Part shown: in pieces, positions 10,374-64,000 of the stretch
How the letters are laid out: each line of letters starts with the position of its first letter
Position numbering within the stretch: the stretch's first letter is position 1
Source: Parcubacteria group bacterium ADurb.Bin305
GTDB lineage: Bacteria > Patescibacteriota > Minisyncoccia > UBA6257
Direction of reading: 5' to 3'
Length of the DNA stretch: 64,000 nt
Assembly (NCBI GenBank): GCA_002069525.1
Contig: MWBJ01000001.1
Location: 21,896-85,895, forward strand
Program-made: the position numbers and the translations under genes
Notes under the pieces: generated by a model
The model's input: the letters and a program-made list of their open reading frames with translations, nothing else
What the model was told of the DNA's origin: nothing
Databases searched by the model: none

Positions 10374-10413
10374 TATATCTAAACATTACTCTTATTTATT
10401 AAAATTACTTAAA

Positions 10414-10989: not shown

Positions 10990-10994
10990 AAATT

Positions 10995-11600: not shown

Positions 11601-11623
11601 AATTCTTAACTTATAGCTTTACT

Positions 11624-12550: not shown

Positions 12551-12560
12551 AATAATTTAT

Positions 12561-13028
12561 TTACGGTTTAACACAGTAAATAGTATCTTCTATCTCTGTG
12601 CCGCAATTAACCCCATAGATATTATTACCATCAATATCGTCATCTAAAGCAGGATCTTTTGTTTCCAAGACACTACCTAAAACATAATCTTGACCAGAAG
12701 TACCATATTCATAGCTATACCCAGAATTAGATAAAGGATCCCGAGGAATTTTAGATACCCCAATTCCAATATAAGGGTCGGTTAAGATATCGGAAAGTTC
12801 TTCCCAATTTGAGGCTCGTGGATAAAATTGATACTTACTATAGTATAGCTCTAAAGCCACCATGGTATTATGTAAATCGGCAATTCGTCGAGCATCTCTA
12901 GCTTTAGCCCGAGAGCTACCTAACCCTACTAAAATTATAGAGGACAACAGAGCAATTATGGTTACCACGATTAACATTTCAATAAGCGTGAAACCATAGG
13001 AAAATCTTTTTCTACTAATGTTGATCAT
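12561..13028 (-). CDS. type IV pilin (likely major pilin)
   Basis: YGFTLIEMLIVVTIIALL prepilin motif. 155 aa. Sits immediately upstream of pilD. Confidence 0.65.
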   Translation of the reverse strand: MINISRKRFSYGFTLIEMLIVVTIIALLSSIILVGLGSSRAKARDARRIADLHNTMVALELYYSKYQFYPRASNWEELSDILTDPYIGIGVSKIPRDPLSNSGYSYEYGTSGQDYVLGSVLETKDPALDDDIDGNNIYGVNCGTEIEDTIYCVKP

Positions 13029-13115
13029 AATATTTAATTAATTATTTTAATTATTTAATTATTTTTAATATTGCTTAAATGTTTAGATAAAAAATTACAA
13101 CAGCCAACTAATTAT

Positions 13116-14324: not shown

Positions 14325-14442
14325 AATTAAGTAATTTTTTATTAATTAAAAAAGAAATAAAAGAAATGAAATCTAGAAAAGTAAAGTTATATTTTATTAA
14401 TTCTCCCAAGGTTAGCTTAGGTAAAACACATAATTCCTAAAC

Positions 14443-15513
14443 CTATCCTAATAATTGTCTTAATTCTGAGGGATTTAAAGAATAAGCCTCGGCCACTTCG
14501 AGCGAGATCTCTCTCCGTTTTATTAATTCTACAAGAGAACGATTTAAAGAAATCATCCCCTCCTGTGTTGAAGTTTCTATGACTAAATCAATTTGATAAC
14601 TTTTCTTTTCTCGAATCAGGTTTTTAATAGCAGGATTAGCTATCATAACTTCACAGGCAGGAATTCTGCCCCCCCGAATTCTAGGCACCAATCTTTCTGA
14701 AACAGTACCCAATAAAGTCGTAGCTAATTGAGCCCTAATTTGATTTTGCTGATCAGCCGGAAAAGTATCAATAATTCTATCAATAGTTTGACTAGCGGAA
14801 TTAGTATGAAGAGTGGAAAGCACTAAATGACCAGTTTCTGCGGCAGTCAAGGCAATACTAATAGATTCAGCGTCGCGCATTTCTCCAATAACAATAATAT
14901 CTGGATCTTGACGTAAGACAGATCGCAAGCCCTTATTAAAACTCAGGGTATCAATACCCACTTCCCTTTGATCTATTAAAGCCCTGTCTTGAGCAAAAAT
15001 ATATTCAATCGGATCTTCAATAGTGATAATATGGTCCATTCTTTTATGATTAACTTCATCTACCACAGCAGCTAACGTTGTTGTTTTACCATGCCCTGCT
15101 GGACCAACTACTAGAAAAAACCCCTGATGATAAGTAGCTACCTCATGTAAAATAGGCGGCAAATTAAGTTCCTCCACAGTTCTTATTTTAGCTGGAATTA
15201 ACCGCAAGGCAGCTGCTAAATAACCTTTTTGGAAATAAACATTAATTCTAAAACGAAGTTTGTCTTCATAGGAAAAAGCAAAATCAATTTCTTTTTCCTC
15301 GATTAATTTTTCCTGCTGCTCTGGCACTAATAAGGCGGAAATTAATCCGGCCACCATTTCAGGTGTTAAAATCGGCTCATTGGATAAAGGCAACAAATTA
15401 CCATCAATCCTAACTGTAGGATGACGACCAACACTTAAATGCAAATCAGAAGCTCCTTGTTGCCCAGCCAAAACCATTAACTCTGCTAATTTTTTTTGAT
15501 AATCAAAAGCCAT
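14443..15513 (-). CDS. pilT: type IV pilus retraction ATPase (PilT-like)
   Basis: Walker A motif GPAGHGKTTT. 356 aa matches PilT/PilU size rather than PilB. Confidence 0.8.
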   Translation of the reverse strand: MAFDYQKKLAELMVLAGQQGASDLHLSVGRHPTVRIDGNLLPLSNEPILTPEMVAGLISALLVPEQQEKLIEEKEIDFAFSYEDKLRFRINVYFQKGYLAAALRLIPAKIRTVEELNLPPILHEVATYHQGFFLVVGPAGHGKTTTLAAVVDEVNHKRMDHIITIEDPIEYIFAQDRALIDQREVGIDTLSFNKGLRSVLRQDPDIIVIGEMRDAESISIALTAAETGHLVLSTLHTNSASQTIDRIIDTFPADQQNQIRAQLATTLLGTVSERLVPRIRGGRIPACEVMIANPAIKNLIREKKSYQIDLVIETSTQEGMISLNRSLVELIKRREISLEVAEAYSLNPSELRQLLG

Positions 15514-19358: not shown

Positions 19359-19940
19359 TTATATCTTTTTTCTGGAAAATTCGCAACCACAATAATGCTG
19401 ATGATATAAATGATATTTAGCTAGTAATTCTTTCTCTCGCTGATAAGCTCTTTGGGAATTTAAATCAAAAGTTATATATTTAATCGGATGTTTTTTATAT
19501 TGTCGGGACAATTTATGGCCGACTTCATTAATAAACCTTGTATCTTTAAACATATTAATGCTTAAGGTAGTAGCTACTTGATTAAAGCGATTCATTTGAG
19601 CAAAAATAAATAATTGCCGCAAACGCCAAAAAAAACATTGCTGACAACGCTGACTATTTTCCTTATAATCCGCAGGTGATAAAAATAAATTTTTCGATAA
19701 ATACGTTAACCATTTATTATGATCATAAGCGCCATAATATACCTTAATAGAATAAATTTTAGCAATTTTTTTCACCTCAAGTTTTCTTTTCTCATACTCT
19801 GATCTGGGAAAAATATTAGGATTATAAAAATATAAAGCTAATTGAGACCGTAAATATAAATTACGCCTTTGATAATAATTATCTAAATATTCCAAAATAG
19901 GCAAAGCGCATGGGGCACAACAGGTATGAAGAAGTAACAT
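19359..19940 (-). CDS. queH: epoxyqueuosine reductase QueH (DUF208)
   Basis: Starts at internal Met MLLLHTCCAPCALPILEY (the HxCCAPC signature of QueH), with further conserved Cys residues downstream. The track ORF extended 77 codons upstream into the tgt C-terminus. The start is reassigned to 19940. Confidence 0.7.
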   Translation of the reverse strand: MLLLHTCCAPCALPILEYLDNYYQRRNLYLRSQLALYFYNPNIFPRSEYEKRKLEVKKIAKIYSIKVYYGAYDHNKWLTYLSKNLFLSPADYKENSQRCQQCFFWRLRQLFIFAQMNRFNQVATTLSINMFKDTRFINEVGHKLSRQYKKHPIKYITFDLNSQRAYQREKELLAKYHLYHQHYCGCEFSRKKI

Positions 19941-19944
19941 AAAA

Positions 19945-21102
19945 TTAAATATTTTCCCGTAAGCGATGAAGTAATTGAGTAATAAAATATAAATTATGCC
20001 AAGTAGCCAACCTAAAATATAAAGGTTCCTTAATGAGATAAAGATGATGCAAATAAGCTCGAGAAAAGTTTTGACAAGTATAACAATTGCACTCGTGATC
20101 AATCGGAAATTTATCTGCAGCAAAACAACTATTACTAATTTTGAGAAGACCTTTGCGGTATTCTGATTCAAAACTAATATCAGAACCGGAAGAATTATCC
20201 CCGATTACCAAGCGACCATTATACAAAGCACCGTGACGAGCTAATCTAGCCGGACTAACACAATCAAACATATCCACCCCCCGTTTAATCACTTCGATTA
20301 TATCGTAAGGGGAAGCGCCTAACCCCATGGTATAAAGAGGTTTGTCATAAGGAATAGATGAACGCAAAGCATCCAGAATTTCTAAAGTGCGTGGCATATC
20401 GTAGCCAATTGTTTCACCGCCCAGAGCCAAGCCATCAAATGGCAAACTAGTAATAAAATTAAGGGCTTCCAAGCGTAAGTCTAAAAAAGAACCCCCTTGA
20501 ACAATACCAAAAATTAAAGTGTTATTTTCTGGCGCCATTTTTTTGAGTTCTTGAAATCTTTTCAACGATTTTAACGCCCACTTCTTAGTTCTTTCTAAAC
20601 TTAATTTAACATAATTTTTGTTGTCTAAATTAGGACTACAGTCATCAAAAGCCATAATAATATCGGAACCTATCTTAAACTGAATCTCAATCGCTTTCTC
20701 GGCGTCAATAAAATGCTTCGAACCATCGTAGGGAGAAATAAACTCAATTCCCTTATCTGTCACTTTGCTCAAAACACCTAATTTAGCAGAGTATCTTTTT
20801 TGAGAAAAACTCCAGCCTTGGAACCCCCCTGAATCACTTAAAATAGTTTTGGGCCAACCCATATAATTATGAATGCCCCCGAAAGAATTTATTAATTCTT
20901 CGGTGGGCCTCAAATGTAAATGTAAAGCGTTCACTAAAATAATTTCTATACCTATTTCCTGCAAATCTTGGGGACTCAAAGCTTTAACAGCAGCTTTCGT
21001 GGCTGGAGGCATAAAAACAGGTGTTTGAAATTTACCATGATTAGTAATTACCTCTCCAGCACGAGAAAAATTATATTTTGATTTTTTAAGGATATTAAAC
21101 AT
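19945..21102 (-). CDS. tgt: queuine tRNA-ribosyltransferase
   Basis: FQTPVFMPPATKAAVKAL and IILVNALHLHLRP blocks. C-terminal zinc site CNCYTCQNFSRAYLHHL. Confidence 0.9.
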   Translation of the reverse strand: MFNILKKSKYNFSRAGEVITNHGKFQTPVFMPPATKAAVKALSPQDLQEIGIEIILVNALHLHLRPTEELINSFGGIHNYMGWPKTILSDSGGFQGWSFSQKRYSAKLGVLSKVTDKGIEFISPYDGSKHFIDAEKAIEIQFKIGSDIIMAFDDCSPNLDNKNYVKLSLERTKKWALKSLKRFQELKKMAPENNTLIFGIVQGGSFLDLRLEALNFITSLPFDGLALGGETIGYDMPRTLEILDALRSSIPYDKPLYTMGLGASPYDIIEVIKRGVDMFDCVSPARLARHGALYNGRLVIGDNSSGSDISFESEYRKGLLKISNSCFAADKFPIDHECNCYTCQNFSRAYLHHLYLIKEPLYFRLATWHNLYFITQLLHRLRENI

Positions 21103-38806: not shown

Positions 38807-40555
38807 ATGAATTTCAAAGATTTTTTTCAATCTTTTTGGGGAGGCGTAATAACTGTTGGCCTGCTAGGCGGTTTAATTATTTTGTTCATTAACCTTGTAA
38901 GAGCACCAAAAGGCCCCATGGTGGAGTTTTCTATAGAAGGACCTCAAACAGTGCGATCTGGAGAAACTAATATCTTTAAATTACTAATTACCAACAACTC
39001 GCGAACACCATTAAATAATGCTGAAATAGAATTAAAGCTGCCAGAAGGGGTATCTGTTGAGGATCTGGCTCAAGAAAACCAAACAACTATTAATTATTTT
39101 TTAGGAGAAATTGAAGCCCGCAAACAGACTGAAAAAACTATTAATTTATTAATCACCGGCTTGCCCAAAACTAGTAAAATCATTGAAGCTGTACTGCGAT
39201 ATCGCTCAGGGTCAGTAACTGCCACTTTTGAAATTCCAACTAAAATATCTGTAGGTATTCAAGAATCCGCCTTTGTCTTGAATATAGATGTCCCTAAAGA
39301 AATCTTTACCGGCCAACTAGTACCTCTTGATATCCGCTGGGAAAATCAAACTAACAATACTTTTGATAATGTCTTTTTAAAAGCAGAGTGGCCTACTGGG
39401 TTCATCTTTCAAGAAGCTAATCCCCCAACTATCCCTGAATCCCTAAATAACACGTGGCTCTTAGGCAATATTAGCCCTCAATCTTCAGGAAAAATTCAAG
39501 TCAAAAGTTTAATTACAGGCCAACCCGGAGAAATGAAAAAAATTACTTTAACTTTAGAAACTAAATTAAATAATAAAGATTACCCCTTAGCTCAAAAAGC
39601 TACTTTTATTACCCTAACCAACAACCCTTTGGAAGTTCTAACTTTAATCAATAACGAACTTAATTATAATGCTGACCTAGGAGAAACTTTAAACGTAGTT
39701 CTAACTTTTAAAAATAATTATTCAAGCGCTTTAAGAAATTTAGTAGTTAAAACAACTCTGAATGGAGACGCTCTTGATTATTCATCATTAAAAGCCCCGA
39801 AGGCGGTTTACAATACTCGCCTACACTCTTTGGTCTGGGATGGTTTAAAAGTTAATGAGATTTATTCTTTAACTCCGGGGGAAACTAGTTCTTTAACTTT
39901 TTCTATCAACTTAAAACAAAATTGGCCAATGTCCAGTGAAACCCAAAAAAATCCTGTCATTGAAATTAGAACCGAAGTGCAAAGCTCTAATATTCCTGAA
40001 AACATCCAAATTTCAGAATTGCCCAAAGCCATTTCTATTAGCAACGTCAAAATCAATACTGAAGCCCAAATAAGTATTGAGAGCTATTTTAAGGAAATCA
40101 CCACCACCTTATTTAATAAAGGCAAGCTACCTCTTCGAGTAGGAGAACCAACAGAGTTTACTATTCATTGGAAGTTAACCAATTCCTACAATACTATAAA
40201 TAATGTTATTGTTAAAACCTCTTTACCTTTATGGGTGGAATTTACCACCTTGGTGGCAGGAAACTACCAAAACGCCCCTAAATATGATCCAAGCACCCGC
40301 CAAATTATTTGGCAATTACCTTCTGTGCCAGCTGGAGCCGGCTATCTAACTGAGGCCCCGGAATTAGTCTTCCAAATTCGCGTTACGCCTACAGCCAATT
40401 TTGTTAATCAACCAATCCCGCTTATAGAAAAAACCATCTTAACAGCTAGGGATTCTTTTACCAGTAAAGAAATTATCCAAGAGTATCCAGCTGTTATGTC
40501 AGACAGGTTGACTGATAAAAGTGTCTCTTATTTGGAAACGATAGTCCAACCATAA
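38807..40555 (+). CDS. membrane-anchored surface protein built of ~5 tandem beta-rich repeat domains (DUF11/CARDB-like)
   Basis: N-terminal TM helix. Recurrent ~110-aa units each carrying a G(E/D)T..x(L/F)x..NN block: SGETNIFKLLITNNS, GQLVPLDIRWENQTNNT, LGETLNVVLTFKNNYS, PGETSSLTFSINLKQN, VGEPTEFTIHWKLTNSYNT. Confidence 0.5.
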   Translation: MNFKDFFQSFWGGVITVGLLGGLIILFINLVRAPKGPMVEFSIEGPQTVRSGETNIFKLLITNNSRTPLNNAEIELKLPEGVSVEDLAQENQTTINYFLGEIEARKQTEKTINLLITGLPKTSKIIEAVLRYRSGSVTATFEIPTKISVGIQESAFVLNIDVPKEIFTGQLVPLDIRWENQTNNTFDNVFLKAEWPTGFIFQEANPPTIPESLNNTWLLGNISPQSSGKIQVKSLITGQPGEMKKITLTLETKLNNKDYPLAQKATFITLTNNPLEVLTLINNELNYNADLGETLNVVLTFKNNYSSALRNLVVKTTLNGDALDYSSLKAPKAVYNTRLHSLVWDGLKVNEIYSLTPGETSSLTFSINLKQNWPMSSETQKNPVIEIRTEVQSSNIPENIQISELPKAISISNVKINTEAQISIESYFKEITTTLFNKGKLPLRVGEPTEFTIHWKLTNSYNTINNVIVKTSLPLWVEFTTLVAGNYQNAPKYDPSTRQIIWQLPSVPAGAGYLTEAPELVFQIRVTPTANFVNQPIPLIEKTILTARDSFTSKEIIQEYPAVMSDRLTDKSVSYLETIVQP

Positions 40556-45075: not shown

Positions 45076-45492
45076 ATGACAGAAAAAAATAAAACTAATG
45101 ATCTCAATAATAATATAACAAATCATCTTTCTTGGCCAGCCAACGAAGAAGAAGGTGAATTAGCAATTGATTTATATGAAACCGACAAAAACTTAGTCTT
45201 AAAAGCAGTGGTAGGTGGTGTCAAAATTAATAATTTAGATATAGCTATTACCAATGATATGATCACTATTAAAGGAGAAAGAAAACCTGAGGAGCATGAA
45301 GAAATTAAAAAAGTTTATTATAATGAATGTTTTTGGGGAATATTTTCCAGAGCTATAATTTTACCGGCTGAAATTGATGCTGATAAAGCTAAAGCTACTT
45401 TAAAAAACGGCTTATTAACAATTTATCTACCCAAAATAGAAAAAAATAAGGAAAAAACAGTCAAGATTATTGAAGAAAACGAGGAAAATTAA
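45076..45492 (+). CDS. Hsp20/alpha-crystallin family small heat-shock protein
   Basis: ELAIDLYETDKNLVLKAVVGGVKINNLDIAITNDMITIKGER...GLLTIYLPK is the alpha-crystallin domain pattern. 138 aa. Confidence 0.8.
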   Translation: MTEKNKTNDLNNNITNHLSWPANEEEGELAIDLYETDKNLVLKAVVGGVKINNLDIAITNDMITIKGERKPEEHEEIKKVYYNECFWGIFSRAIILPAEIDADKAKATLKNGLLTIYLPKIEKNKEKTVKIIEENEEN

Positions 45493-45623: not shown

Positions 45624-45663
45624 CAATAAAAACCCCTCTTAGATAAAAAGAGGGGTTTTTATT
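45624..45663. terminator. bidirectional Rho-independent terminator
   Basis: aaaaACCCCTCTTagataaaAAGAGGGGTttttatt: 10-bp GC-rich stem flanked by an A-tract and a T-tract. Sits between the convergent tRNA-Leu/hsp20 (+) and the pilin-like gene (-). Confidence 0.7.
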
Positions 45664-45683: not shown

Positions 45684-46121
45684 CTATTTTGCTGTTGGCC
45701 ATTTAACCGTAGTAGAACTACCAGCAATAAATTGAGTTACTACATTAACTAAGAATTTAGCTAATAAGGCTACGGCAAAGCCGATTAAAGCATATATTAA
45801 AACCTGCATAGCTAATTTAATTTTATCTTCCTTACCACCAGCTGTCACATAAGTAAAACCAGCATAAACAATCATAATCGCTGAAACTAACAAAACTATA
45901 TTAGCAAACCAGTTTAAAGCTTTGGCTAATAACCCCCAAATATCTATATCTGTCATTTCTGGGGGCCAATTAGGATTAGGCGGCTCATTGGCCGCCTCGG
46001 TCACTACTGGCAAGCCAACAATACCACCAATCATAGCAGAGAGTAATATAAATGCAGCTAATTTATAAGTTAATTTTTTCATAAAACTTTGAGGAATTTT
46101 AATTTTACTAAAAATAAGCAT
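45684..46121 (-). CDS. small secreted two-TM protein, TrbC/VirB2-like pilin topology (paralog 1 of 3)
   Basis: Signal peptide ending VVTEA-ANEPP. Then two hydrophobic helices around the motif YAGFTYVTAGGKEDKIKLAMQVLIYALIGFAVALLAKFL. Confidence 0.45.
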   Translation of the reverse strand: MLIFSKIKIPQSFMKKLTYKLAAFILLSAMIGGIVGLPVVTEAANEPPNPNWPPEMTDIDIWGLLAKALNWFANIVLLVSAIMIVYAGFTYVTAGGKEDKIKLAMQVLIYALIGFAVALLAKFLVNVVTQFIAGSSTTVKWPTAK

Positions 46122-46200
46122 TAATTATCGACCATTAATAAGTTAATTTATTTTATTTAGTTTATTATAATCGAAAATGCCCACGAAGTCAAGAGAACAA

Positions 46201-46641
46201 TTAAATAATCGGCTGGCTAGGTGGCTGACCGGTAAAAAACTCATAAAGTAAATTAGGTACTGCTTGAGCAATAAGAGCTAACGCTAAACCTATTAAAGCC
46301 CAAACTAATACCCTTTGGGCTAATTTAATTCTTTCTTCATTGCCACCGGCTGTCGCGTAAGTAAAACCTGCATAAACCACCATAATAGGTGCAATGTAAA
46401 ACACTAGTCTAATCAAAAATTTTACGATATTTCTAACCACTTGACCAATAGTAGTGGTTTTACCCAAAGGATTAGGCAAAGAAATCGCGCCAGAACCACC
46501 GCCACTCGTACCGCCAATACCGCCGCCAATTCCACCACCACCAGCTCCCGGCTCATTTAGAGCCTTGGATAAAACAGGAAACCCTATGATGATAACAACG
46601 ATAACCATTAAAATGATAGAGACAAATAATTTAGAGTTCAT
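46201..46641 (-). CDS. small secreted two-TM protein, TrbC/VirB2-like pilin topology (paralog 2 of 3), with Gly-rich linker
   Basis: Signal or TM N-terminus. GAGGGGIGGGIGGTSGGGSGA low-complexity tract. Shared motif YAGFTYATAGGNEERIKLAQRVLVWALIGLALALIAQAV. Confidence 0.45.
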   Translation of the reverse strand: MNSKLFVSIILMVIVVIIIGFPVLSKALNEPGAGGGGIGGGIGGTSGGGSGAISLPNPLGKTTTIGQVVRNIVKFLIRLVFYIAPIMVVYAGFTYATAGGNEERIKLAQRVLVWALIGLALALIAQAVPNLLYEFFTGQPPSQPII

Positions 46642-46692
46642 AAAATAGTTTAAAATAATTTTAAGATAATGTTTCTTTGGGGGTCTTAAGTT

Positions 46693-47184
46693 TTAATAAC
46701 ATTCCAAATGCCACCAACTACCAGTCATATTGAAACCGCCTATTTCTTTAATGAACCAGAAAAAAGTATGCACAATCACCCAAGCTAAAAGCACAATAGC
46801 TAACCCTATTATAGCATTAGTGATCAGTTTTTGTCCAGCAGTAATGTTTTTTTGATTACCAAAAGATAACATCCACATAAAAGCTCCGACTATAATAATA
46901 ACTATACAAATCCAAAAAGCTAGTTGTAAAACAAAATTAATGACATTTTGCACTAAAACTAAAAGATCGCAAACGGTACACGCTAATCCTTCGCACGGAA
47001 CCAATCCTCCCTCAGAAATTTGAGGTAAAGCGCTCGGCGTTGAAGTAATGGTTACTGGTAAAATAGAAGGAATAAAAGGAAGCGTAGCCGAGGTAGCTCC
47101 GGTAACTAAAACAGGCAAGACAATTAAAATTATCAAGAAATTAATTAAATAAATTCGCGATAATTTTGATAAAAATTTTTTCAT
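46693..47184 (-). CDS. small secreted two-TM protein, divergent paralog 3 of the pilin-like triplet
   Basis: Signal peptide. Cys cluster CEGLACTVCD. Same two-helix architecture VGAFMWMLSFGNQKNITAGQKLITNAIIGLAIVLLAWVI. Confidence 0.4.
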   Translation of the reverse strand: MKKFLSKLSRIYLINFLIILIVLPVLVTGATSATLPFIPSILPVTITSTPSALPQISEGGLVPCEGLACTVCDLLVLVQNVINFVLQLAFWICIVIIIVGAFMWMLSFGNQKNITAGQKLITNAIIGLAIVLLAWVIVHTFFWFIKEIGGFNMTGSWWHLECY

Positions 47185-47233: not shown

Positions 47234-48535
47234 TTATTTCCAAGAAAAATTTAAAGTATTAGCCCCATCTAAAACTACATCGTGAGGAGGTAGTTTTCTT
47301 ATACCCACATCATCTATCATCTGTTTAAAAACGTTGTCAAACTGTTCATAGTCGTATTGATAATAAATCCAACTATTCAATGATTGAGCTAAAAAAGTAC
47401 TATCTAGAGGTTCATTTAAATAAGCAGCAATAATATTCTTATTAGCAGGTGGCCTATGGGTTATATTATAATAAGCATCTGCCCCTTCATTGGAATTCAA
47501 AAATTTTAAAAATAACCAAGATTCTTTAGGGTGTTTGGTCTGTGTACTGACTAAATAATAAGAAATACGAGCATAATTATTTTGATTAGGGTTATTACGA
47601 AAATTAGGCAAAGAACTAATTTTAAAATTCAGCAAAGGATTGTATTCCCTTAGCACATCTATGGCTTGTTCGTAACCAATCATCAGCGCTGTTTTTCCTT
47701 GACTAAAAGCAATGACTGAATCGGGTAAATTCTCATTCCAAGAATAATTAATAGACAAAGGGTTGGCAAATTGAGTATAAAATTGCAAAGCTGCTTCAGC
47801 CGGCACTATTGGTTGATTCTGCCAAAGGGTGGCATCTTTAAAAACTACCAGACCTAAATTTTCATCAACCACAGGGCTGCCTAACTGACCCATTAAAGCA
47901 GAAAGAATATCCGTAGCCCAACGCACGTTATTGCTCGTACCCAAAGCAATGGCTGAACGAATCAAACGACCATTGGGCTCTAAAATTCTTAATTTAGGGA
48001 TAAGATCTAAAACTTCTTCCCAAGTTTTTGGAGGTAAAGGAATAGCCGAAGCATTAAAAATGTCTTGATTATAATAAAGAGCCAGAGTATCAATGCTTAC
48101 CGGTATACCATAAAGATAAGAATTATTAACCAGCACTGGTTTCAGGCTAGTTTCGGAATAAGTCTCTAGTAATTTTTTGACTGTGATTTGTTTATCCTGA
48201 GGAAGATACAAAGGCCAAGCTTTATTCTGATATTTAGGAAACCACGTGTCATAGACAAAAAAAACATCAGGGGCTTCATTATCAGCAAAAGCTTTCAGTA
48301 AGGCCTGATGATATTCTTCTTCTGAAAATTGGGTATAGAAAATTGTAAGATGCGGATAACCACTGGTAAACTGATCGAATACTTGAGTCATTTTCTCAAC
48401 TGACTCGATTCCCCACACTTGTAAAGTAATGGCTCTAGGTTTGGCAATAAAGGAAAAGTAAATTAAGGCCACAAATCCAATTACGGCTGCAATTACTCCT
48501 ATTACTATATTCCTTTGTTTTGGCGTTAAACTCAT
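47234..48535 (-). CDS. extracellular solute-binding protein (ABC transporter SBP family 1-like), membrane-anchored
   Basis: N-terminal TM anchor then a ~400-aa periplasmic-binding-protein-like domain (LQVWGIE...). No cognate permease or ATPase nearby. Confidence 0.55.
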   Translation of the reverse strand: MSLTPKQRNIVIGVIAAVIGFVALIYFSFIAKPRAITLQVWGIESVEKMTQVFDQFTSGYPHLTIFYTQFSEEEYHQALLKAFADNEAPDVFFVYDTWFPKYQNKAWPLYLPQDKQITVKKLLETYSETSLKPVLVNNSYLYGIPVSIDTLALYYNQDIFNASAIPLPPKTWEEVLDLIPKLRILEPNGRLIRSAIALGTSNNVRWATDILSALMGQLGSPVVDENLGLVVFKDATLWQNQPIVPAEAALQFYTQFANPLSINYSWNENLPDSVIAFSQGKTALMIGYEQAIDVLREYNPLLNFKISSLPNFRNNPNQNNYARISYYLVSTQTKHPKESWLFLKFLNSNEGADAYYNITHRPPANKNIIAAYLNEPLDSTFLAQSLNSWIYYQYDYEQFDNVFKQMIDDVGIRKLPPHDVVLDGANTLNFSWK

Positions 48536-52397: not shown

Positions 52398-53093
52398 TCA
52401 GTGGTCTATCAATCCTGCTTTAACAGCCACTCTTTTGTAGGCTACCCCTACCGGCCAACAACTTTGTAAAATTAATAAAGGACGGTCTTCCGGAGGAAAG
52501 ATAGTTTCGGTCGTATCTTCACCTTGAGGCCAAGGTAAAAAAATTCGTTTCTCCTGCACCTGAAACAATAAAACTTTATTTTTCCAAATTACAATTATCT
52601 CATCCCCTTGATCTAATTCATTTAGCAAGGAAAAAACAGATTTATAATGTCCCGGCTGCCAAGGATATTGGGAACTGTGCCCTAAAATTATAGTGTAGTT
52701 TTCGCCGGGTATCCCACCGGGATATATTACCACCCCTTCTGTTAATTTTTTCTCTATTAATTTTAGATCTGGAACTTCCACTGTTTTAATAGGGGCTTCC
52801 AGTTTTAATTTAGGGATAACCAAAACATCGCCGGTTAATTGGGTATAGGTCTCGGGTAATAAGGGTGGAACTGACACCTCAGTAGGCAACACGGTACTAC
52901 CTTGTGTTAAGGTGGTAGAAGTTGAGGAGGATAAAAAAGCTGGTTTTCTATAAACTTCGTAGACAATTTTTCCCCTCATTTCTGATACTTTATATTTAAT
53001 CCAAGCCATAAAAGCTGCTCCATTTAAAACAAAAAATAAACCAATAAAAACAGCGAAGAATATGGATAAAAAAATTTTGAAATCTTTTTTCAT
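52398..53093 (-). CDS. sortase family transpeptidase
   Basis: N-terminal TM anchor. Catalytic His (IILGHSS). Cys in an LxTC-like LILQSCWP motif. Conserved Arg 9 residues after Cys (AYKRVAV). Confidence 0.6.
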   Translation of the reverse strand: MKKDFKIFLSIFFAVFIGLFFVLNGAAFMAWIKYKVSEMRGKIVYEVYRKPAFLSSSTSTTLTQGSTVLPTEVSVPPLLPETYTQLTGDVLVIPKLKLEAPIKTVEVPDLKLIEKKLTEGVVIYPGGIPGENYTIILGHSSQYPWQPGHYKSVFSLLNELDQGDEIIVIWKNKVLLFQVQEKRIFLPWPQGEDTTETIFPPEDRPLLILQSCWPVGVAYKRVAVKAGLIDH

Positions 53094-60005: not shown

Positions 60006-62480
60006 ATGAAACTGGCCCATAAATTTCTTTTAATATTATGCTTAATCTTGGCGCTCGGTGGAATATATTTATGGTATTTAAGCAGAGACCTACCAGATCC
60101 TCAAAGTTTTCCGAAAAGAGTAATTCCTCAATCCACTAAAATTTATGATCGCACTGGTAAAGTTTTACTCTATGAAGTTTACCAAGGAGAAAAAAGAACA
60201 GTAATTAGTTGGGATCAGATTTCTCCTTATGTTGTTTACACCACCTTGGCTGCTGAAGATCATACCTTTTATACCCATCATGGTATAGTGTTAAAAAGTG
60301 TTGTCCGAGCTACCCTCCATAACCTCTTGCATCCCGGCAGTTTGCAGGGGGGTTCTACTATTACCCAGCAATTAGCCAGAAATGCTTTCCTCACTGCTGA
60401 TAAAACTATCAATAGAAAATTAAAAGAATTATTATTGACTTTTAGCATAGAAAAAAATTATTCCAAGCAAGAAATTTTGACTATGTATTTAAACCAAATA
60501 CACTTTGGTCATAATGTTTACGGAATAGAAAGTGCCAGTCAATTTTATTTCAACAAACCGGCCAAAAATTTATCATTAAGCGAAAGCGCTTATTTAACCG
60601 CCTTAATCCAAGCACCCAATTATTATAGCCCTTATGGGAACCACAGAGAAGATCTGGAAGTTAGAAAAAATTGGGTCTTATCTCGGGTGGATTTGTTAAA
60701 TTATTTTCCCAAGGATGTAGTAGAAAAAGCTAAACAAGAAAAAGTAGCTTTTGCCCCGCCGAGTTTTGGGATTAAAGCTCCTCATTTTGTTATGTATGTT
60801 AAAGACATTTTAGCCCAACAATATAGTGATGAAGATTTAGAAACTAACGGTTATTCTATTATCACTACTTTGGATATGCGACTGCAGACTATCGCTGAAG
60901 AAGTAGTAAAAAAGTACGGCGACCTGAATGAAAAAAAAGGAGCCCATAATTTAGCTTTAGTTGCTCTTGATCCTAAGACCGGTCAAATTTTAGCCATGGT
61001 TGGCTCTAAGGATTATTGGAATATCGAGGCTGAGGGCAATGTTAATGTGACCACCAGAATACGTCAACCCGGCTCTGCCTTAAAACCAATTATTTATGCC
61101 ACTGCTTTGGAAAAAGGTTATTCAGCAGAAACTATTCTTTTTGACACTGCTTTGAATGGGAGAGCTGCTAACTTTTCTTTAAACCCAACTCAACCTTATT
61201 ATGTTAGTAATTACGATGGTCGCACTAGAGGCCCAGTAACTTTAAGACAAGCCCTCGCTCAATCTTTAAATATTCCCTCAGTTAAATTGTTATATCTAGT
61301 AGGTATCCAAAATGTCTTAGATAATGCGAAAAAATTAGGCATCACTACTTTTACCCAACCAGCGCAACATTATGGTTTATCATTAGTTTTGGGTGGAGGT
61401 GGGGTTACTTTATTAGAACTCACTAATGCCTACTCTACTTTTAATCAAGAAGGATTGTTTCATCCTTACGCTTCTATTTTAGAGATAAAAGACTCTCAAA
61501 GTCACACTTTATCAAAATTAAACCCATCTCATCCTCAACGAGTATTTAGCCAACAAACCAGTCGTTTAATTAGTGATATCTTGTCTGATAATGAAAGCCG
61601 AGCCCCTATTTTTGGATACCAAAGCGCTCTTTATTTTCCTAATATGCAGGTGGCTGTGAAAACTGGAACCGCTGATGAATTTAGGGATTTTTGGGCTATT
61701 GGTTATACCACGTCCTTAACTGCCGGAGTTTGGGTTGGTAATAATGACAGAAGCCCAGCTACTACAGCGAATGCTTTAAGTTCAGAGTTAGCAGCGCCCT
61801 GCTGGCATGAATTTATAGAAAAGGCCAGTCGATATTACCCCAGCTCCACTTTTACGCCTCCAACTCCAACCACCCCACCTAACCCCTTAAAACCTATGCT
61901 AAATGGAAAATATATTAATGACCGGCTGTACAAAAATAAGGTCACTGGGGAATTAAAAACAGTAAAAGAGGTCCATACTATTCTCTATTTTATTAACAAA
62001 AACGATCCGGTGCATGGCTGTCCCGCCCAGCCAACTGATGATGCCCAATTCTATAATTGGGAAATACCAGTATTATTGTGGGCTAAAACCAATATTCCTA
62101 ATTTTGATCAAGAGTATAATCTAAATCCGGGACCCGATTATGAAGCTTTAGATTGCGAGATCTCACAACCGTTAGAACTACCTGAAATTATTGAATTTCC
62201 AGATATTCCTCAAATTACTTTATTAAACCCCCAAGATGGTCAAGGGGTAACTAATGATTTAACAATAGAAGTTCAAATTATAGGCCAATTAGGAGGGAAT
62301 AGGCCTAAAGTATACTTAAATAATAACCTGATAGGAGAGATGGTGGTTAATCCTAATGGTTCTTACTCTTTAATTTTACCGTACTCCCAATTATTATTAG
62401 AGAGTAACCAAATTAAAATAGAAGTGCAGGACCAATATAATCAAGTTAATAGTAAAGTGATAACGATTTTAAAAAAATAG
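60006..62480 (+). CDS. class A penicillin-binding protein (bifunctional glycosyltransferase/transpeptidase, PBP1A-like) with Pro-rich C-terminal extension
   Basis: N-terminal TM. GT51 motifs EDHTFYTHHG and GGSTITQQLAR. Transpeptidase SALK (SxxK), SLN (SxN) and KTGT. About 200-aa C-terminal extension containing TPPTPTTPPNP. Confidence 0.85.
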   Translation: MKLAHKFLLILCLILALGGIYLWYLSRDLPDPQSFPKRVIPQSTKIYDRTGKVLLYEVYQGEKRTVISWDQISPYVVYTTLAAEDHTFYTHHGIVLKSVVRATLHNLLHPGSLQGGSTITQQLARNAFLTADKTINRKLKELLLTFSIEKNYSKQEILTMYLNQIHFGHNVYGIESASQFYFNKPAKNLSLSESAYLTALIQAPNYYSPYGNHREDLEVRKNWVLSRVDLLNYFPKDVVEKAKQEKVAFAPPSFGIKAPHFVMYVKDILAQQYSDEDLETNGYSIITTLDMRLQTIAEEVVKKYGDLNEKKGAHNLALVALDPKTGQILAMVGSKDYWNIEAEGNVNVTTRIRQPGSALKPIIYATALEKGYSAETILFDTALNGRAANFSLNPTQPYYVSNYDGRTRGPVTLRQALAQSLNIPSVKLLYLVGIQNVLDNAKKLGITTFTQPAQHYGLSLVLGGGGVTLLELTNAYSTFNQEGLFHPYASILEIKDSQSHTLSKLNPSHPQRVFSQQTSRLISDILSDNESRAPIFGYQSALYFPNMQVAVKTGTADEFRDFWAIGYTTSLTAGVWVGNNDRSPATTANALSSELAAPCWHEFIEKASRYYPSSTFTPPTPTTPPNPLKPMLNGKYINDRLYKNKVTGELKTVKEVHTILYFINKNDPVHGCPAQPTDDAQFYNWEIPVLLWAKTNIPNFDQEYNLNPGPDYEALDCEISQPLELPEIIEFPDIPQITLLNPQDGQGVTNDLTIEVQIIGQLGGNRPKVYLNNNLIGEMVVNPNGSYSLILPYSQLLLESNQIKIEVQDQYNQVNSKVITILKK

Positions 62481-62590
62481 AGTTTTTTAAACAAAATAGA
62501 GTTTTTTAAACAAAATAGAGTTTTTTAAAAAAATAGAGTTTTTTTAAAAAAATAGAGTTTTTTTAAAAAAATAGAAATTTCTTTAAAAAG
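62474..62590. repeat. tandem direct repeat, ~19-bp unit AAAATAGAGTTTTTTAAAC x6
   Basis: The ATAGAG core recurs at 62478, 62497, 62516, 62534, 62553 and 62571 (spacing 19/19/18/19/18, last copy degenerate). The first copy contains the PBP stop codon. There is no spacer alternation, so this is not CRISPR. Confidence 0.8.
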
Positions 62591-62760
62591 AAAACCTAAA
62601 AAAAATAAAAAACAAAAAATAGAAAAATTAAGTAAGAATAATAACCCAGCAGCACTATGGCTATTATTAAGATAGAGAGCAAAGCGAGTTAAATAAAATA
62701 TTATAAAACCCAAAAACATAACAGCTGTATTTATAAAAATACAGCTGTTATAGTAAAACT

Positions 62761-63063
62761 CTATTGTACTTTAAAAGAAATTCTATTAATTTGTAGCTTA
62801 GGATTATTAGTCTGCTGGATTAAATAATTCTTTATTTCTCCCTCTTCTATTTTTAATTGAGAGGCAATGCTGGAATTTTTACAAATAATCACCAAGTGGT
62901 TTTTAGAATAATTAGCTAAACTCACCCAATCACTAGGCCAATGTTTCACTAAAGCGCAATATTGACCTAAAACCTCCTTTAAATTTCTTTCATTTTCGTA
63001 ACTTTGAAATCCTTTTTTAATAAACCATTGTTTAAATGAATTATTAAGCGCAATAAAAGACAT
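62761..63063 (-). CDS. DUF721/DciA-like protein
   Basis: 100-aa protein directly downstream of dnaN (4-bp gap). The pattern ...WPSDWVSLANYSKNHLVIICKNSSIASQLKIEEGEIKNYL...NRISFKV resembles DUF721, which typically neighbours dnaN/recF/gyrB. Confidence 0.5.
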   Translation of the reverse strand: MSFIALNNSFKQWFIKKGFQSYENERNLKEVLGQYCALVKHWPSDWVSLANYSKNHLVIICKNSSIASQLKIEEGEIKNYLIQQTNNPKLQINRISFKVQ

Positions 63064-63067
63064 AAAA

Positions 63068-64000
63068 TTACATTTTTAACGGCATTAATAAATAAAAGAA
63101 ATCATTTTCTTCTTTGCCTTTTATTAAAATAGGATTGATATCTTTATTTAAACCAATAAAAATTTCTTGATAATTTGTAGAGTTTAAACCATCTAGGAAA
63201 AAACGATAATTTAAATTTATTTCTAAATCATTTTTAGGGCCTTTAATATTAAGAATTGGGCTAATATTGGTAGCTGCACCTAGAGTAGGGTCTTCAGCGG
63301 TAGTAATAATTTGATGCTTAGTAGGTGAAAAAATAAATTTAACATTATTAATTTTACCGCTAAAAAGGCCGCTTAATTTAACAGCTTCAATTAAATCTTC
63401 TTTTGGGGTAATAATTTCATACTCAAAACTTTGAGGAATAATAGCAGAATAATTCGGATATTGAGCGTTCATTAATTGAGAAATTAATCTAAGATCACCT
63501 AAATTAAATTGAACCTGATTAATTTCTGGTATTATTTCTATTAATTCAGTTTCATTATTATTTTCAGCAATTAATCTTAATAATTCTTGGATTACTTTTA
63601 ATGGTATTATTAAAGAGATGTCATTAGTAATATTGGTTTTATAATTATCCTTAGTAATAATTTTTTCGGCTAACCGAAAACTATCAGTACCTACAAGCCT
63701 TAAATTATTTTTTTCTAATTTCAGAAAAACCCCATTTAATTCAACTTTGGAGGAAACATTATTGATAGCCGGAATAACTTGCTCTAAACTTTGTTGAAAT
63801 TTTATTTTATTTATCGAAATATATTTATCGGACTTAATATGAGGTATAATAGGAAAATCTTCAATATTAAACCCTTGAAACATTACACTATGTTTACCAT
63901 CTTCGACTTTTAAATTTTGACCATCTTGAATTAAATTAATCTTTTCTTCAGATAGGTTACTTAAAAAATTATTAAACACTTTAGCAGGTATAACCACTTC
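63068..64000 (-). CDS. dnaN: DNA polymerase III beta subunit (sliding clamp), N-terminally truncated by the window edge
   Basis: The ORF runs to the window end. ~310 aa of three-domain clamp-like sequence. Context: DUF721 and gyrB lie nearby. Confidence 0.75.
   Translation of the reverse strand, partial: EVVIPAKVFNNFLSNLSEEKINLIQDGQNLKVEDGKHSVMFQGFNIEDFPIIPHIKSDKYISINKIKFQQSLEQVIPAINNVSSKVELNGVFLKLEKNNLRLVGTDSFRLAEKIITKDNYKTNITNDISLIIPLKVIQELLRLIAENNNETELIEIIPEINQVQFNLGDLRLISQLMNAQYPNYSAIIPQSFEYEIITPKEDLIEAVKLSGLFSGKINNVKFIFSPTKHQIITTAEDPTLGAATNISPILNIKGPKNDLEINLNYRFFLDGLNSTNYQEIFIGLNKDINPILIKGKEENDFFYLLMPLKM

What the first reader, a model, noticed from the sequence alone, without database searches (positions are those of the whole stretch)
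45684..47184. Tandem triplet of small secreted two-helix proteins with VirB2/TrbC-like (T4SS pilin-like) architecture
Three adjacent minus-strand genes of 145, 146 and 163 aa each encode a signal peptide followed by two hydrophobic helices. Paralogs 1 and 2 share a strongly conserved block, YAGFTY(V/A)TAGG(K/N)E(D/E)(K/R)IKLA..VL..ALIG(F/L)A.AL(L/I)A. The third has a diverged version plus a CEGLACTVCD cysteine cluster, and the second a poly-Gly linker. This topology and size are those of conjugative or T4SS pilins (TrbC/VirB2) rather than type IV pilins, which carry an N-terminal GFTLxE motif. Canonical T4P genes sit about 30 kb away in the same window. A small-genome organism that appears to encode both a T4P machine and a separate family of VirB2-like pilin paralogs suggests an uncharacterised surface filament or T4SS-like apparatus, possibly for host or episymbiont contact. 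No VirB4, VirB6 or VirD4 gene is present in this window.
Basis: partly seen in the sequence, partly recalled or inferred. Interest (0 to 1): 0.65.

Follow-up and report, generated by a model that had tools for sequence, protein, structure and literature searches.

The report
VirB2-like pilin trio, Patescibacteria T4SS
Three neighbouring small genes in this ultra-small (Patescibacteria/Paceibacteria) bacterium encode VirB2-type secretion-system pilins, a kind of tandem pilin array already described for this phylum, and the matching VirB4 secretion machine lies just outside the window on the other side of the replication origin.

Summary
Three co-directional minus-strand genes (45684-46121, 46201-46641, 46693-47184) each encode a signal peptide, a low-complexity linker and a two-helix hairpin. 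All three pass Pfam's curated threshold for PF18895 (T4SS_pilin). The window comes from 'Parcubacteria group bacterium ADurb.Bin305' (Paceibacteria). Tandem arrays of divergent VirB2-like pilins are a published hallmark of Patescibacteria (PMC10633639, PMC12102498). NCBI already names an allele of pilin 3 'pilin'. The 'missing' VirB4 exists in the same MAG. In conspecific contigs (98% DNA identity) a PrgI/VirB3, TrsD-like, VirB4 (CD1110 family) cluster with a fourth pilin-domain gene lies across dnaA, about 23 kb from the trio. Beyond the published picture I found four things. The trio is a conserved ordered set. Strain variation is confined to the exposed N-linker and C-tail. An orphan sugar-type solute-binding protein abuts such arrays in 17 of 46 related loci. 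Many family members are single-chain fusions of 2-15 pilin domains. Verdict: a new member of a known kind, of modest interest.

The parts
45684..46121 (-). Pilin 1: a VirB2-like T4SS_pilin paralog of 145 aa as an ORF. The probable true start is Met14 at 46082, giving 132 aa. Layout: signal peptide, short Pro/Asn linker (ANEPPNPNWPPE), helix 61-93, loop AGGK, helix 98-134.
   Evidence: PF18895 at 41.6 bits, E=1.3e-10. Hydropathy. AF2 model. Annotated as OQA44509.1/BWY48_00068, with the 132-aa start used in MDD3434391.1.
46201..46641 (-). Pilin 2: a VirB2-like T4SS_pilin paralog of 146 aa, with a Gly-rich linker and a PNPLG cap. It is the paralog closest to the family consensus.
   Evidence: PF18895 at 29.4 bits. 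TrbC PF04956 at 22.5 bits, below its cutoff. Strain alleles of 146, 156 and 170 aa differ only in the Gly linker and the C-tail.
46693..47184 (-). Pilin 3: a divergent Cys-bearing subtype of 163 aa. It has a Pro/Ser/Thr linker, a PCEGLACTVCD cluster before helix 1, and a C-terminal WWHLECY.
   Evidence: PF18895 at 32.3 bits. A 185-aa allele in four other strains has an identical core. Both the N-terminal and the C-terminal Cys motifs are conserved in P0088 and in the L009 ortholog. NCBI names the 185-aa allele 'pilin'.
47234..48535 (-). A membrane-anchored SBP_bac_1 (sugar-type, MalE/GanS-like) solute-binding protein of 433 aa. It is co-directional with pilin 3 and ends 49 nt upstream of it. 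It is probably an accessory partner of the array; this is inferred from conserved adjacency only.
   Evidence: PF01547, E=4e-33. NCBIfam GanS/MalE-like hits are far below their cutoffs. A homolog lies within 57 nt of a pilin gene in 17 of 17 related loci that contain one, out of 46 loci. No polytopic permease-like ORF is adjacent.
46164..46192 (-). A sigma-70-like promoter match (TTGACT-17-TATAAT, 11 of 12) in the 79-nt gap upstream of pilin 1.
   Evidence: Consensus scan and sequence reading. Not evidence of function.
45633..45653 (-). An intrinsic-terminator-like hairpin followed by a T-run, 31 nt after the pilin 1 stop codon. It marks the end of the array's transcription unit.
63068..64000 (-). 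dnaN, cut off by the window end. It is an origin-proximal marker: the T4SS core (VirB3/PrgI, TrsD-like, VirB4, fourth pilin-domain gene) lies beyond it, across dnaA, in conspecific contigs.
   Evidence: Pfam DNA_pol3_beta domains. Sibling contigs L055, L063, L071 and L074. DNA identity of 97.8-98.3%.

Best explanation
The three genes are paralogous VirB2-type pilins that belong to the chromosomal, monoderm-type (MPF-FATA-derived) type IV secretion system of a Paceibacteria (Patescibacteria/CPR) organism. Shown: family membership, topology, presence of the VirB4 machine in the same genome, and its position across the replication origin. Inferred mechanism: each precursor is exported by Sec and its signal peptide is removed. 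The mature protein sits in the membrane as a helical hairpin, with its variable N-linker and C-tail outside and its short charged loop (GGKEDK, GGNEER, GNQKN) inside. The VirB4/TrsD/VirB3/VirB6-like machine encoded about 23 kb away then extracts the hairpins and polymerises them into a surface filament or conduit, which the epibiont uses to contact or exchange material with its host cell. The three paralogs are old, specialised subunits, probably one consensus-like major subunit and two accessory ones including a Cys-stapled type, and not recent duplicates. Their exposed ends vary between strains while the packing core stays fixed. The co-directional orphan sugar-type SBP probably acts with the array.
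For: Family: all three hit PF18895 above the gathering score. Of 20 relatives, 20 hit PF18895 and 9 hit TrbC/VirB2. Weak hits to the Mycoplasma ICE pilin-like family NF045849. Topology. Machine: P0214, a VirB4 named as from ADurb.Bin305, passes NF045971 at 349 vs 325 bits; the 221-aa neighbour is TrsD-like; PrgI hits PF12666 at 32.4 bits; a 693-aa protein has 8 TM-like segments; a fourth pilin-domain gene of 373 aa is present. Linkage: contigs L055, L063 and L074 are 97.8-98.3% identical to the window and carry VirB4...DnaA-DnaN-DciA-PBP-...-GyrB-sortase contiguously. Conserved set: L009 has SBP, pilin-3 type (55%, both Cys motifs), pilin-2 type (44%) and pilin-1 type (46%) in the same order. 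Exposed-end variation: variable or indel columns number 0, 1 and 6 in the cores against 28, 33 and 26 outside them for pilins 3, 2 and 1. Literature: such arrays occur in 383 Patescibacteria assemblies, with mean identity 25% and maximum 54% (PMC12102498). The Southlakia array SEML1_0014-0019 is essential and is followed by a convergent Hsp20, as in this window (PMC10633639).
Against: No experiment has shown a T4SS pilus in any Patescibacterium; the reviews call it a possibility. Monoderm MPF-FATA systems normally have no pilus. Neither a sequence profile nor a fold search links the proteins to any solved conjugative pilin, because the fold is a generic helical hairpin. The array is separated from virB4 by about 21 genes. 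In related genomes it is far more tightly linked to an SBP (17 of 46 loci) than to VirB4 (1 of 46 within 10 kb). Many relatives are fused 2-15-domain polyproteins or are attached to ORFs of more than 1,000 aa, which is unusual for subunits that must be extracted singly from the membrane. No VirD4, relaxase or VirB5 was seen in the sequence available; this was not tested genome-wide.
Confidence: 0.7

Rival explanations
1. The proteins are VirB2 homologs but do not form an extracellular pilus. They stay in the membrane as hairpin subunits of the translocation channel, or as a membrane platform or anchor, for example an oligomeric hairpin ring, or an anchor for large surface proteins.
For: Among the top 149 representatives, 128 carry 2-8 or more pilin domains in one chain, and the search itself reports up to 15. 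The repeat spacing of about 93 aa leaves only short linkers. Single pilin domains are attached to ORFs of 1,400-3,400 aa in several loci, and the T4SS-cluster copy carries a 240-aa extension. Monoderm T4SSs generally lack pili. Fold-search neighbours include ATP-synthase c-ring hairpins, though non-specifically.
Against: In VirB2-type pilins both termini are expected to lie on the same, outer side (general knowledge of solved conjugative pili, not tested here). End-to-end fusion is therefore topologically compatible with a filament. Variation confined to the outward-facing ends between strains fits surface exposure better than a buried channel. The array is essential in Southlakia, and the people who studied it interpret it as pilins.
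Confidence: 0.17
2. The SBP plus pilin array is an autonomous module that works independently of the VirB4 machine. One possibility is a ligand or host-glycan capture and uptake device in which the hairpin proteins are the membrane component partnered with an orphan sugar-type binding protein.
For: An SBP homolog abuts the array in 17 of 46 related loci, is always co-directional, and often overlaps it by stop and start codons. No ABC permease-like ORF is next to it. VirB4 lies within 10 kb in only 1 of 46 loci. The SBP is 25-43% identical across loci while the other neighbours have been shuffled.
Against: In L018 (Saccharibacteria) VirB4, the array and the SBP all lie within about 10 kb. Southlakia's essential array has no adjacent SBP. 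The T4SS cluster itself carries a pilin-domain gene. The family is sequence-related to TrbC/VirB2. No known transporter uses VirB2-like hairpins. The 46 loci are relatives of this window's pilins, so they are not independent samples.
Confidence: 0.1
3. The proteins are unrelated small membrane proteins (holins, bacteriocin immunity proteins or the like) that only mimic pilin topology.
For: The fold is a generic two-helix hairpin, and structure search cannot discriminate.
Against: Three independent above-threshold PF18895 hits. TrbC hits in 9 of 20 relatives. No PHROGs holin match. The chromosomal housekeeping context is conserved across classes. A T4SS is present in the same genome.
Confidence: 0.02

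Closest known systems
Southlakia epibionticum ML1 T4SS pilin array, SEML1_0014-0019 (Wang et al. 2023, Cell; PMC10633639)
   Same: Tandem, co-directional genes of about 125-140 aa that hit PF18895, some also TrbC. They sit in an origin-proximal chromosomal position (low locus-tag numbers) and are followed by a convergent Hsp20 gene, as in this window. They belong to a monoderm-type T4SS with PrgI and VirB4. The organism is a Patescibacterium that also has T4P.
   Different: Southlakia has six genes, inside the T4SS cluster next to a VirB6-like gene. Here there are three genes, about 23 kb and about 21 genes from virB4, on the other side of dnaA. The class differs (Saccharimonadia vs Paceibacteria). 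An SBP gene is adjacent here but not there. Essentiality was shown there and is untested here.
'VirB2 arrays' of Patescibacteria (Quinonero-Coronel et al. 2025, Microb Genom; PMC12102498)
   Same: Detected with the same Pfam models. Arrays hold 2-11 pilin genes with mean identity 25% and maximum 54%, and the trio here is 23-40% identical. T4SS genes in Paceibacteria lie near dnaA/dnaN, rnpA, rpmH and ksgA, exactly as in L071.
   Different: The paper analysed virB4 neighbourhoods of plus or minus 20 CDS, and this array falls at or just outside that range. The main text of the paper does not mention the SBP linkage, fused multi-domain pilins, the Cys subtype, or termini-restricted strain variation.
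Classical conjugative pilins VirB2 (Agrobacterium) and TrbC (RP4), Pfam PF04956
   Same: A long signal peptide, a mature two-helix hairpin of about 70-100 aa with a short polar loop, and dependence on a VirB4 machine. Remote sequence similarity exists: pilin 2 scores E=1.3e-4, and 9 of 20 relatives score E<0.01.
   Different: All three score below the PF04956 gathering threshold. The host is a monoderm with no outer membrane. Long low-complexity linkers lie between the signal peptide and the core. There is no evidence for head-to-tail cyclisation; pilin 3 instead has Cys residues at both ends. No VirB5, VirB7, VirB9 or VirB10 was seen.
VirB2 paralog arrays of Bartonella and Anaplasma (as cited in PMC12102498)
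   Same: Tandem amplification and divergence of T4SS pilin genes, interpreted as surface variation or a broader host range.
   Different: Those are diderm, host-cell-targeting MPF-T systems. Here the paralogs form a conserved ordered set, and the variation is in linker length, not in whole-gene diversification.
Mycoplasma ICE pilin-like protein, Mbov_0395 family (NCBIfam NF045849)
   Same: A small two-helix pilin-like protein of a wall-less or monoderm conjugative T4SS. There are weak hits at 18-24 bits, and its partner VirB4 family NF045975 also matches the VirB4 here.
   Different: All scores are below the 40-bit cutoff, so these proteins are not members. That protein is ICE-borne and conjugative, whereas this array is chromosomal with no relaxase seen.

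Membership tests
Pfam PF18895 T4SS_pilin (VirB2-like pilins of Patescibacteria and monoderms) | Profile HMM score at or above the curated gathering threshold (26.6 bits) | tested here: met
   Scores of 41.6, 29.4 and 32.3 bits for pilins 1, 2 and 3. All 20 of 20 aligned relatives also match.
Pfam PF18895 T4SS_pilin (VirB2-like pilins of Patescibacteria and monoderms) | A cleavable N-terminal signal sequence followed by two hydrophobic helices joined by a short polar loop | tested here: met
   Hydropathy segments. The AF2 model has helices 61-93 and 98-134 and a 4-residue loop, with core pLDDT 80-93. Signal-peptide cleavage itself is inferred from the AxA-like sites TEA|A, SKA|L and TSA|T.
Patescibacteria T4SS pilin array (sensu PMC12102498 and PMC10633639) | A VirB4-type T4SS encoded in the same genome | tested here: met
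   P0214 is 100% identical to the sibling-strain VirB4 and is named by NCBI as from ADurb.Bin305. NF045971 scores 349.1 bits against a cutoff of 325. PrgI, a TrsD-like protein and an 8-TM protein are adjacent.
Patescibacteria T4SS pilin array (sensu PMC12102498 and PMC10633639) | Two or more tandem pilin genes with low mutual identity (reported mean 25%, maximum 54%) | tested here: met
   Three genes with gaps of 51 and 79 nt and identities of 23-40%.
Patescibacteria T4SS pilin array (sensu PMC12102498 and PMC10633639) | Location near virB4 (within plus or minus 20 CDS in the paper's definition) | tested here: inconclusive
   In conspecific contigs virB4 lies about 22.8 kb and about 21 genes away, across dnaA. 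This is borderline. The paper itself found 813 of 1,948 assemblies with pilins not near virB4.
Patescibacteria T4SS pilin array (sensu PMC12102498 and PMC10633639) | Assembly into a T4SS-dependent extracellular filament | not testable with these tools
   This has not been demonstrated experimentally for any Patescibacterium.
Classical TrbC/VirB2 pilin (Pfam PF04956) | Profile HMM score at or above the gathering threshold (27.9 bits) | tested here: not met
   Pilin 2 scores 22.5 bits (E=1.3e-4). Pilins 1 and 3 have no hit. The relationship is at superfamily level only: 9 of 20 relatives score E<0.01.
Classical TrbC/VirB2 pilin (Pfam PF04956) | Sequence or structural similarity to solved conjugative pilins | tested here: inconclusive
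   The sequence profile against the PDB found only spurious repeat-protein hits. Foldseek against the PDB found nothing at E<=1e-3, only generic hairpins.
Type IV pilins (T4P, class III signal peptide) | N-terminal methylation / prepilin peptidase motif (PF07963, G|FTLxE) | tested here: not met
   No N_methyl hit in the trio. The window's four real prepilins at 9837-13028 all have it.
Holins / phage membrane proteins | A match to a phage holin or lysis family | tested here: not met
   PHROGs gave no family at E<0.01; the one hit (E=0.047) is to a family of unknown function.
ABC importer substrate-binding protein (for the adjacent gene 47234-48535) | An SBP fold family hit, plus a cognate permease and ATPase in the operon | tested here: inconclusive
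   SBP_bac_1 scores E=4e-33. No polytopic permease-like ORF flanks it in the window or in the 17 related loci; this was judged by hydropathy only. A permease elsewhere in the genome cannot be excluded.

The most novel reading that the evidence does not exclude
The conserved unit may be 'orphan sugar-type SBP plus an ordered set of VirB2-like hairpins', not 'VirB4 plus pilins'. In that reading the family builds a heteropolymeric surface structure in which different paralogs occupy fixed positions. Three observations point that way: natural single-chain fusions of 2-15 domains, an ordered paralog set conserved between species, and a Cys subtype whose N- and C-terminal cysteines could replace the head-to-tail cyclisation of classical T-pilins. 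The SBP would be the ligand- or host-glycan-recognising component. That would be a filament or conduit architecture and a targeting principle not described for any T4SS.
Probability: 0.12. Interest if true: 0.75.

Novelty: new member of a known kind. Interest (0 to 1): 0.3.

Why it matters
Patescibacteria make up a large share of bacterial diversity and live attached to other microbes. How they take what they need from their hosts is an open question. The T4SS with its unusual pilin array is one of the few machines shown to be essential, in one cultured Saccharibacterium. This locus adds no new kind of system. It does give a clean Paceibacteria example in which the array is split from its machine by the replication origin. 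It also points to testable details: which parts of the pilins are exposed and vary, a conserved SBP partner, and fused poly-pilins. These could guide structural and genetic work on what the filament is and what it binds.

Tried and rejected
1. A k-mer-limited homolog search with pilin 1 returned only 3 near-identical proteins, which was uninformative. The exhaustive profile search was needed instead.
2. A profile search against PDB sequences gave only spurious summed matches to designed 'Pizza' beta-propeller repeats, through the short motif aGxxYxTxxGN. No pilin was found.
3. A Foldseek search of the AF2 model against the PDB found nothing at E<=1e-3. The hits were generic helical hairpins (chemoreceptors, ATP-synthase c subunits, coiled coils). 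Structure cannot confirm or refute VirB2 membership for so simple a fold.
4. I tried to read past the window edge using the window's own DciA and PBP. The contigs in those assemblies break at dnaN. I got past this by using near-identical DciA variants from sibling strains.
I reached it through the search for homologous proteins instead.
6. The window's species is not among the GTDB representative genomes (best pilin hit 46%), so its genome could not be enumerated for VirD4 or a relaxase.
7. Holin, phage or immunity-protein alternatives: no support.
8. I asked whether Southlakia's SEML1_0023 is the SBP counterpart. It is not; it is an STT3/PglB-like glycosyltransferase.
9. Pfam and NCBIfam gave nothing for five T4SS-cluster genes (382, 384, 238, 693 and 320 aa). 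The VirB6-like call for the 693-aa protein rests on topology alone.
Full report
**1. Observation.**
The ORF scan reproduces the finding exactly. There are three co-directional minus-strand ORFs at 45684-46121 (145 aa), 46201-46641 (146 aa) and 46693-47184 (163 aa), separated by 79 and 51 nt. The conserved block shared by pilins 1 and 2, the poly-Gly linker of pilin 2 and the CEGLACTVCD cluster of pilin 3 are all present. Kyte-Doolittle profiles show an N-terminal signal-like hydrophobic segment and two further hydrophobic helices in each protein. AlphaFold2 on pilin 1, with a 20-sequence alignment, gives a helix 61-93, a four-residue loop and a helix 98-134, with pLDDT 80-93 in the core. Pairwise identities are 35-40% (1 vs 2) and 23-29% (either vs 3), with significant blastp E-values. 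Pilin 1 probably starts at Met14 (46082), as NCBI annotates a sibling allele.

**2. What it is.**
- All three proteins pass the Pfam gathering threshold for PF18895 T4SS_pilin (41.6, 29.4 and 32.3 bits against 26.6). Pilin 2 also has a sub-threshold TrbC/VirB2 hit.
- When 20 family members are scanned, 20 hit PF18895 and 9 hit TrbC/VirB2 at E<0.01, best 2e-7. The family therefore connects to classical VirB2 pilins at superfamily level.
- None has the type IV pilin N_methyl motif, which the four real prepilins at 9837-13028 do have.
- No PHROGs holin or lysis family matches.
- An HMM built from the three paralogs finds no further copy in the window.

**3. Source and context.**
An exact-sequence look-up identifies the window as part of an 86-kb contig of 'Parcubacteria group bacterium ADurb.Bin305', an anaerobic-digester MAG (by its isolate name) of the Paceibacteria. 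The pilins are BWY48_00068 and BWY48_00069, with pilin 3 presumably BWY48_00070. NCBI names the 185-aa allele of pilin 3 'pilin'.

The surroundings are housekeeping genes:
- On one side: ValRS, PrsW, Hsp20 and tRNA-Leu.
- On the other side: SBP, methyltransferase, GyrA, MBL-fold protein, sortase, GyrB, PheT, PheS, YebC, RuvC, PBP1, DciA and DnaN.

The window contains no VirB4, VirB6 or VirD4. A VirB4 profile also finds nothing. The window ends inside dnaN.

**4. The machine is next door.**
Contigs from conspecific strains are 97.8-98.3% identical to the window over 11 kb and run through the origin. Their gene order is sortase, GyrB..., DciA, DnaN, DnaA | RpmH, RnpA, YidC, Jag | a 373-375-aa PF18895 protein, a 225-aa protein, VirB4 (599 aa), a TrsD-like protein (221 aa), PrgI/VirB3 (132 aa), a 320-aa protein, a 693-aa protein with about 8 TM segments, three signal-anchored proteins, KsgA, and a LysM-M23 peptidase.

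The VirB4 passes NCBIfam's cutoff for the CD1110 (monoderm, MPF-FATA-type) family, at 349 against 325 bits. An identical VirB4 is deposited under the name ADurb.Bin305, the window's own MAG. Projected onto window coordinates, virB4 would lie at about 70.0-71.8 kb, some 22.8 kb and about 21 genes from pilin 3. The two loci flank dnaA. This layout (virB4 next to dnaA, dnaN, rnpA, rpmH and ksgA) is what the literature reports for Paceibacteria.

**5. Comparison with what is known.**
- Wang et al. [quoted passage not shown] Their supplement lists six PF18895 genes, SEML1_0014-0019, followed by a convergent Hsp20, the same array-then-Hsp20 arrangement as here.
- Quinonero-Coronel et al. 2025 (PMC12102498) found VirB2-like pilins in 1,948 Patescibacteria assemblies. 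They found 441 arrays of 2-11 genes in 383 assemblies, with mean identity 25% and maximum 54%. Only 1,135 of the 1,948 had pilins near virB4.
- A 2025 review calls these systems unique among monoderms for their potential to build conjugative-type pili.

The finding is therefore a further member of a described kind. Its mechanism, a T4SS-assembled filament or conduit, remains a hypothesis in the field.

**6. Additional observations.**
(a) *Family size and fusions.* A profile of the three paralogs finds 57,451 representative clusters at E<=1e-3 in 1.84 billion proteins. Of the top 149, 128 carry two or more pilin domains in a single chain. By the search's own count the maximum is 15 (P0093, 1,775 aa). 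The sequences show one signal peptide followed by repeats of linker, helix, loop and helix, with a median spacing of 93 aa. The main text of the 2025 paper does not mention such fusions.

(b) *Array size and VirB4 distance.* In 46 related loci from species-representative genomes, nearly all from MAGs labelled Patescibacteria or CPR (five are labelled Gammaproteobacteria, probably mislabelled), 41 hold arrays of 2-10 pilin ORFs. Only one (L018) has VirB4 within 10 kb.

(c) *Conserved order.* L009, from another species, has SBP, a pilin-3 type (55%, with both the N-terminal CxCxC motif and the C-terminal Cys), a pilin-2 type (44%) and a pilin-1 type (46%), in the same order as the window. The trio is therefore an old, ordered orthologous set. 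P0088 is another member of the Cys subtype.

(d) *Strain variation at the ends.* Among strain alleles the hairpin core is nearly invariant, and indels and substitutions cluster in the N-linker and C-tail:
- Pilin 3 has a 22-aa Pro/Ser/Thr indel.
- Pilin 2 has a +14-aa Gly-rich expansion and a +10-aa Pro-rich C-tail.
- Pilin 1 has alternative C-tails.
- Variable or indel columns number 0, 1 and 6 in the cores against 28, 33 and 26 outside them. Part of the 'outside' count for pilin 1 reflects start-site differences between annotations.

(e) *SBP linkage.* A homolog of the adjacent SBP_bac_1 protein (sugar type, one N-terminal TM anchor) is present in 17 of the 46 loci. In all 17 it lies within 57 nt of a pilin gene or overlaps one, and it is co-directional. 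It is upstream in 15 loci and downstream in 2. No polytopic permease-like ORF is beside it. Other window neighbours recur in at most 5 loci. I found no mention of this linkage in the three papers read, and a full-text search found none. It is not universal, because Southlakia lacks it.

(f) *Transcription signals.* A near-consensus promoter match lies upstream of pilin 1. A clean terminator follows pilin 1.

**7. Mechanism and rivals.**
- *Most likely (0.7).* These are Sec-exported VirB2-type hairpins, assembled by the origin-flanking VirB4 machine into a surface filament or conduit for host interaction. Family, topology and the presence of the machine are shown. Assembly and function are inferred.
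- *Rival A (0.17).* The hairpins stay in the membrane as channel or anchor subunits. The fused and giant forms, and the absence of pili in monoderm T4SSs, favour this.
- *Rival B (0.10).* SBP plus array is a module independent of VirB4. The much tighter SBP linkage favours this. L018, Southlakia and the pilin-domain gene inside the T4SS cluster argue against it.
- *Rival C (0.02).* Unrelated small membrane proteins. This is effectively refuted.

**8. Verdict.**
The novelty class is 'new member of a known kind'. Interest is 0.3. The locus itself is an expected feature of a Patescibacteria genome and is already annotated as pilin. The SBP linkage, the poly-pilin fusions, the Cys subtype and the termini-restricted variation are modest, testable additions.

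Noticed in passing
P0004, P0005, P0034, P0060, P0093 and many others; loci L014-L016, L018, L023, L024, L028, L029, L054: Single polypeptides carry 2-15 tandem VirB2-like pilin domains: one signal peptide followed by repeats of linker, helix, loop and helix, about 93 aa apart. Of the top 149 representatives, 128 are multi-domain. A recurring locus type is [3-domain][2-domain][~1,400-1,500-aa protein with one pilin domain]. The main text of the 2025 Patescibacteria T4SS paper does not mention this.
   Followed up: partly
window 47234-48535 (-), and 17 related loci (L009, L010, L014, L017-L021, L025, L030, L032, L039, L041, L046, L048, L051, L053): An orphan, membrane-anchored, sugar-type SBP_bac_1 protein is co-directional with the pilin array and abuts it, often with overlapping stop and start codons, in 17 of 46 related loci. 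No ABC permease-like ORF is beside it. This is a far tighter linkage than the array has with VirB4.
   Followed up: partly
L033, L037, L038, L042, L049, L052 (for example L037:9857-19939, L042:9824-19942): Very large stop-to-stop ORFs of about 1,000-3,400 aa each contain a single pilin domain, usually preceded by a pilin-domain ORF of about 550-770 aa. They may be giant surface proteins anchored or presented through a VirB2-like hairpin.
   Followed up: no
window 46693-47184; P0088; L009:1409-1816: Pilin 3 defines a conserved subtype with a PC..C..CD cluster just before helix 1 and a C-terminal W.H.EC. Cysteines at both extracytoplasmic ends could form a disulfide staple between the N- and C-tails, loosely analogous to the cyclisation of T-pilin.
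   Followed up: partly
window 46950-47090 (pilin 3 linker), 46470-46560 and 46201-46225 (pilin 2 linker and tail); alleles: Length polymorphism between conspecific strains is confined to the low-complexity N-linkers and C-tails: 163 vs 185 aa for pilin 3, and 146, 156 and 170 aa for pilin 2. The hairpin cores are identical.
   Followed up: yes
window 45076-45492 (+) Hsp20, convergent with pilin 1: An Hsp20 gene convergent with the end of the pilin array recurs in 5 of 46 related loci and in Southlakia (SEML1_0020, scored essential there). This suggests a deeply conserved array-then-Hsp20 neighbourhood.
   Followed up: partly
window 62000-64000 and the contig ends of L001, L071 and L064: The window ends in dnaN next to a DciA-like gene, and the last 2 kb are 27% GC. 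Several assemblies of this species break exactly at the dnaA-dnaN junction. dnaN is called at 347 or 375 aa in different strains, which suggests strain heterogeneity or repeats at the origin.
   Followed up: partly
window 9837-15513 (-): A type IV pilus cluster: four N_methyl prepilins (9837-11600 and 12561-13028), a PilD-like A24 peptidase (11624-12550), PilC/T2SSF (13116-14324) and a 356-aa PilT-like ATPase (14443-15513). No PilB-sized extension ATPase was seen in the window.
   Followed up: partly
window 186-1712, 1848-3284, 38807-40555, 52398-53093: Probable surface proteins and their anchoring enzyme: a 508-aa protein with an Ig-like (HYDIN/VesB) domain; a 478-aa protein with an odd above-threshold hit to the herpesvirus gp350 B domain (28.2 bits, probably compositional); a 582-aa DUF11/CLIPPER-repeat protein; and a sortase.
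   Followed up: no
L071:12526-13647 (373 aa; 374-375 aa in other strains): The pilin-domain gene inside the T4SS cluster has one PF18895 domain (residues 72-132) followed by an unannotated extension of about 240 aa. Its length also varies between strains.
   Followed up: partly
window 19359-20171 and 19945-21102 (-): The QueH and TGT ORFs overlap by about 230 nt as listed. The TTG start of QueH is probably too far upstream. QueA, TGT and QueH form a queuosine salvage cluster in this reduced genome.
   Followed up: no
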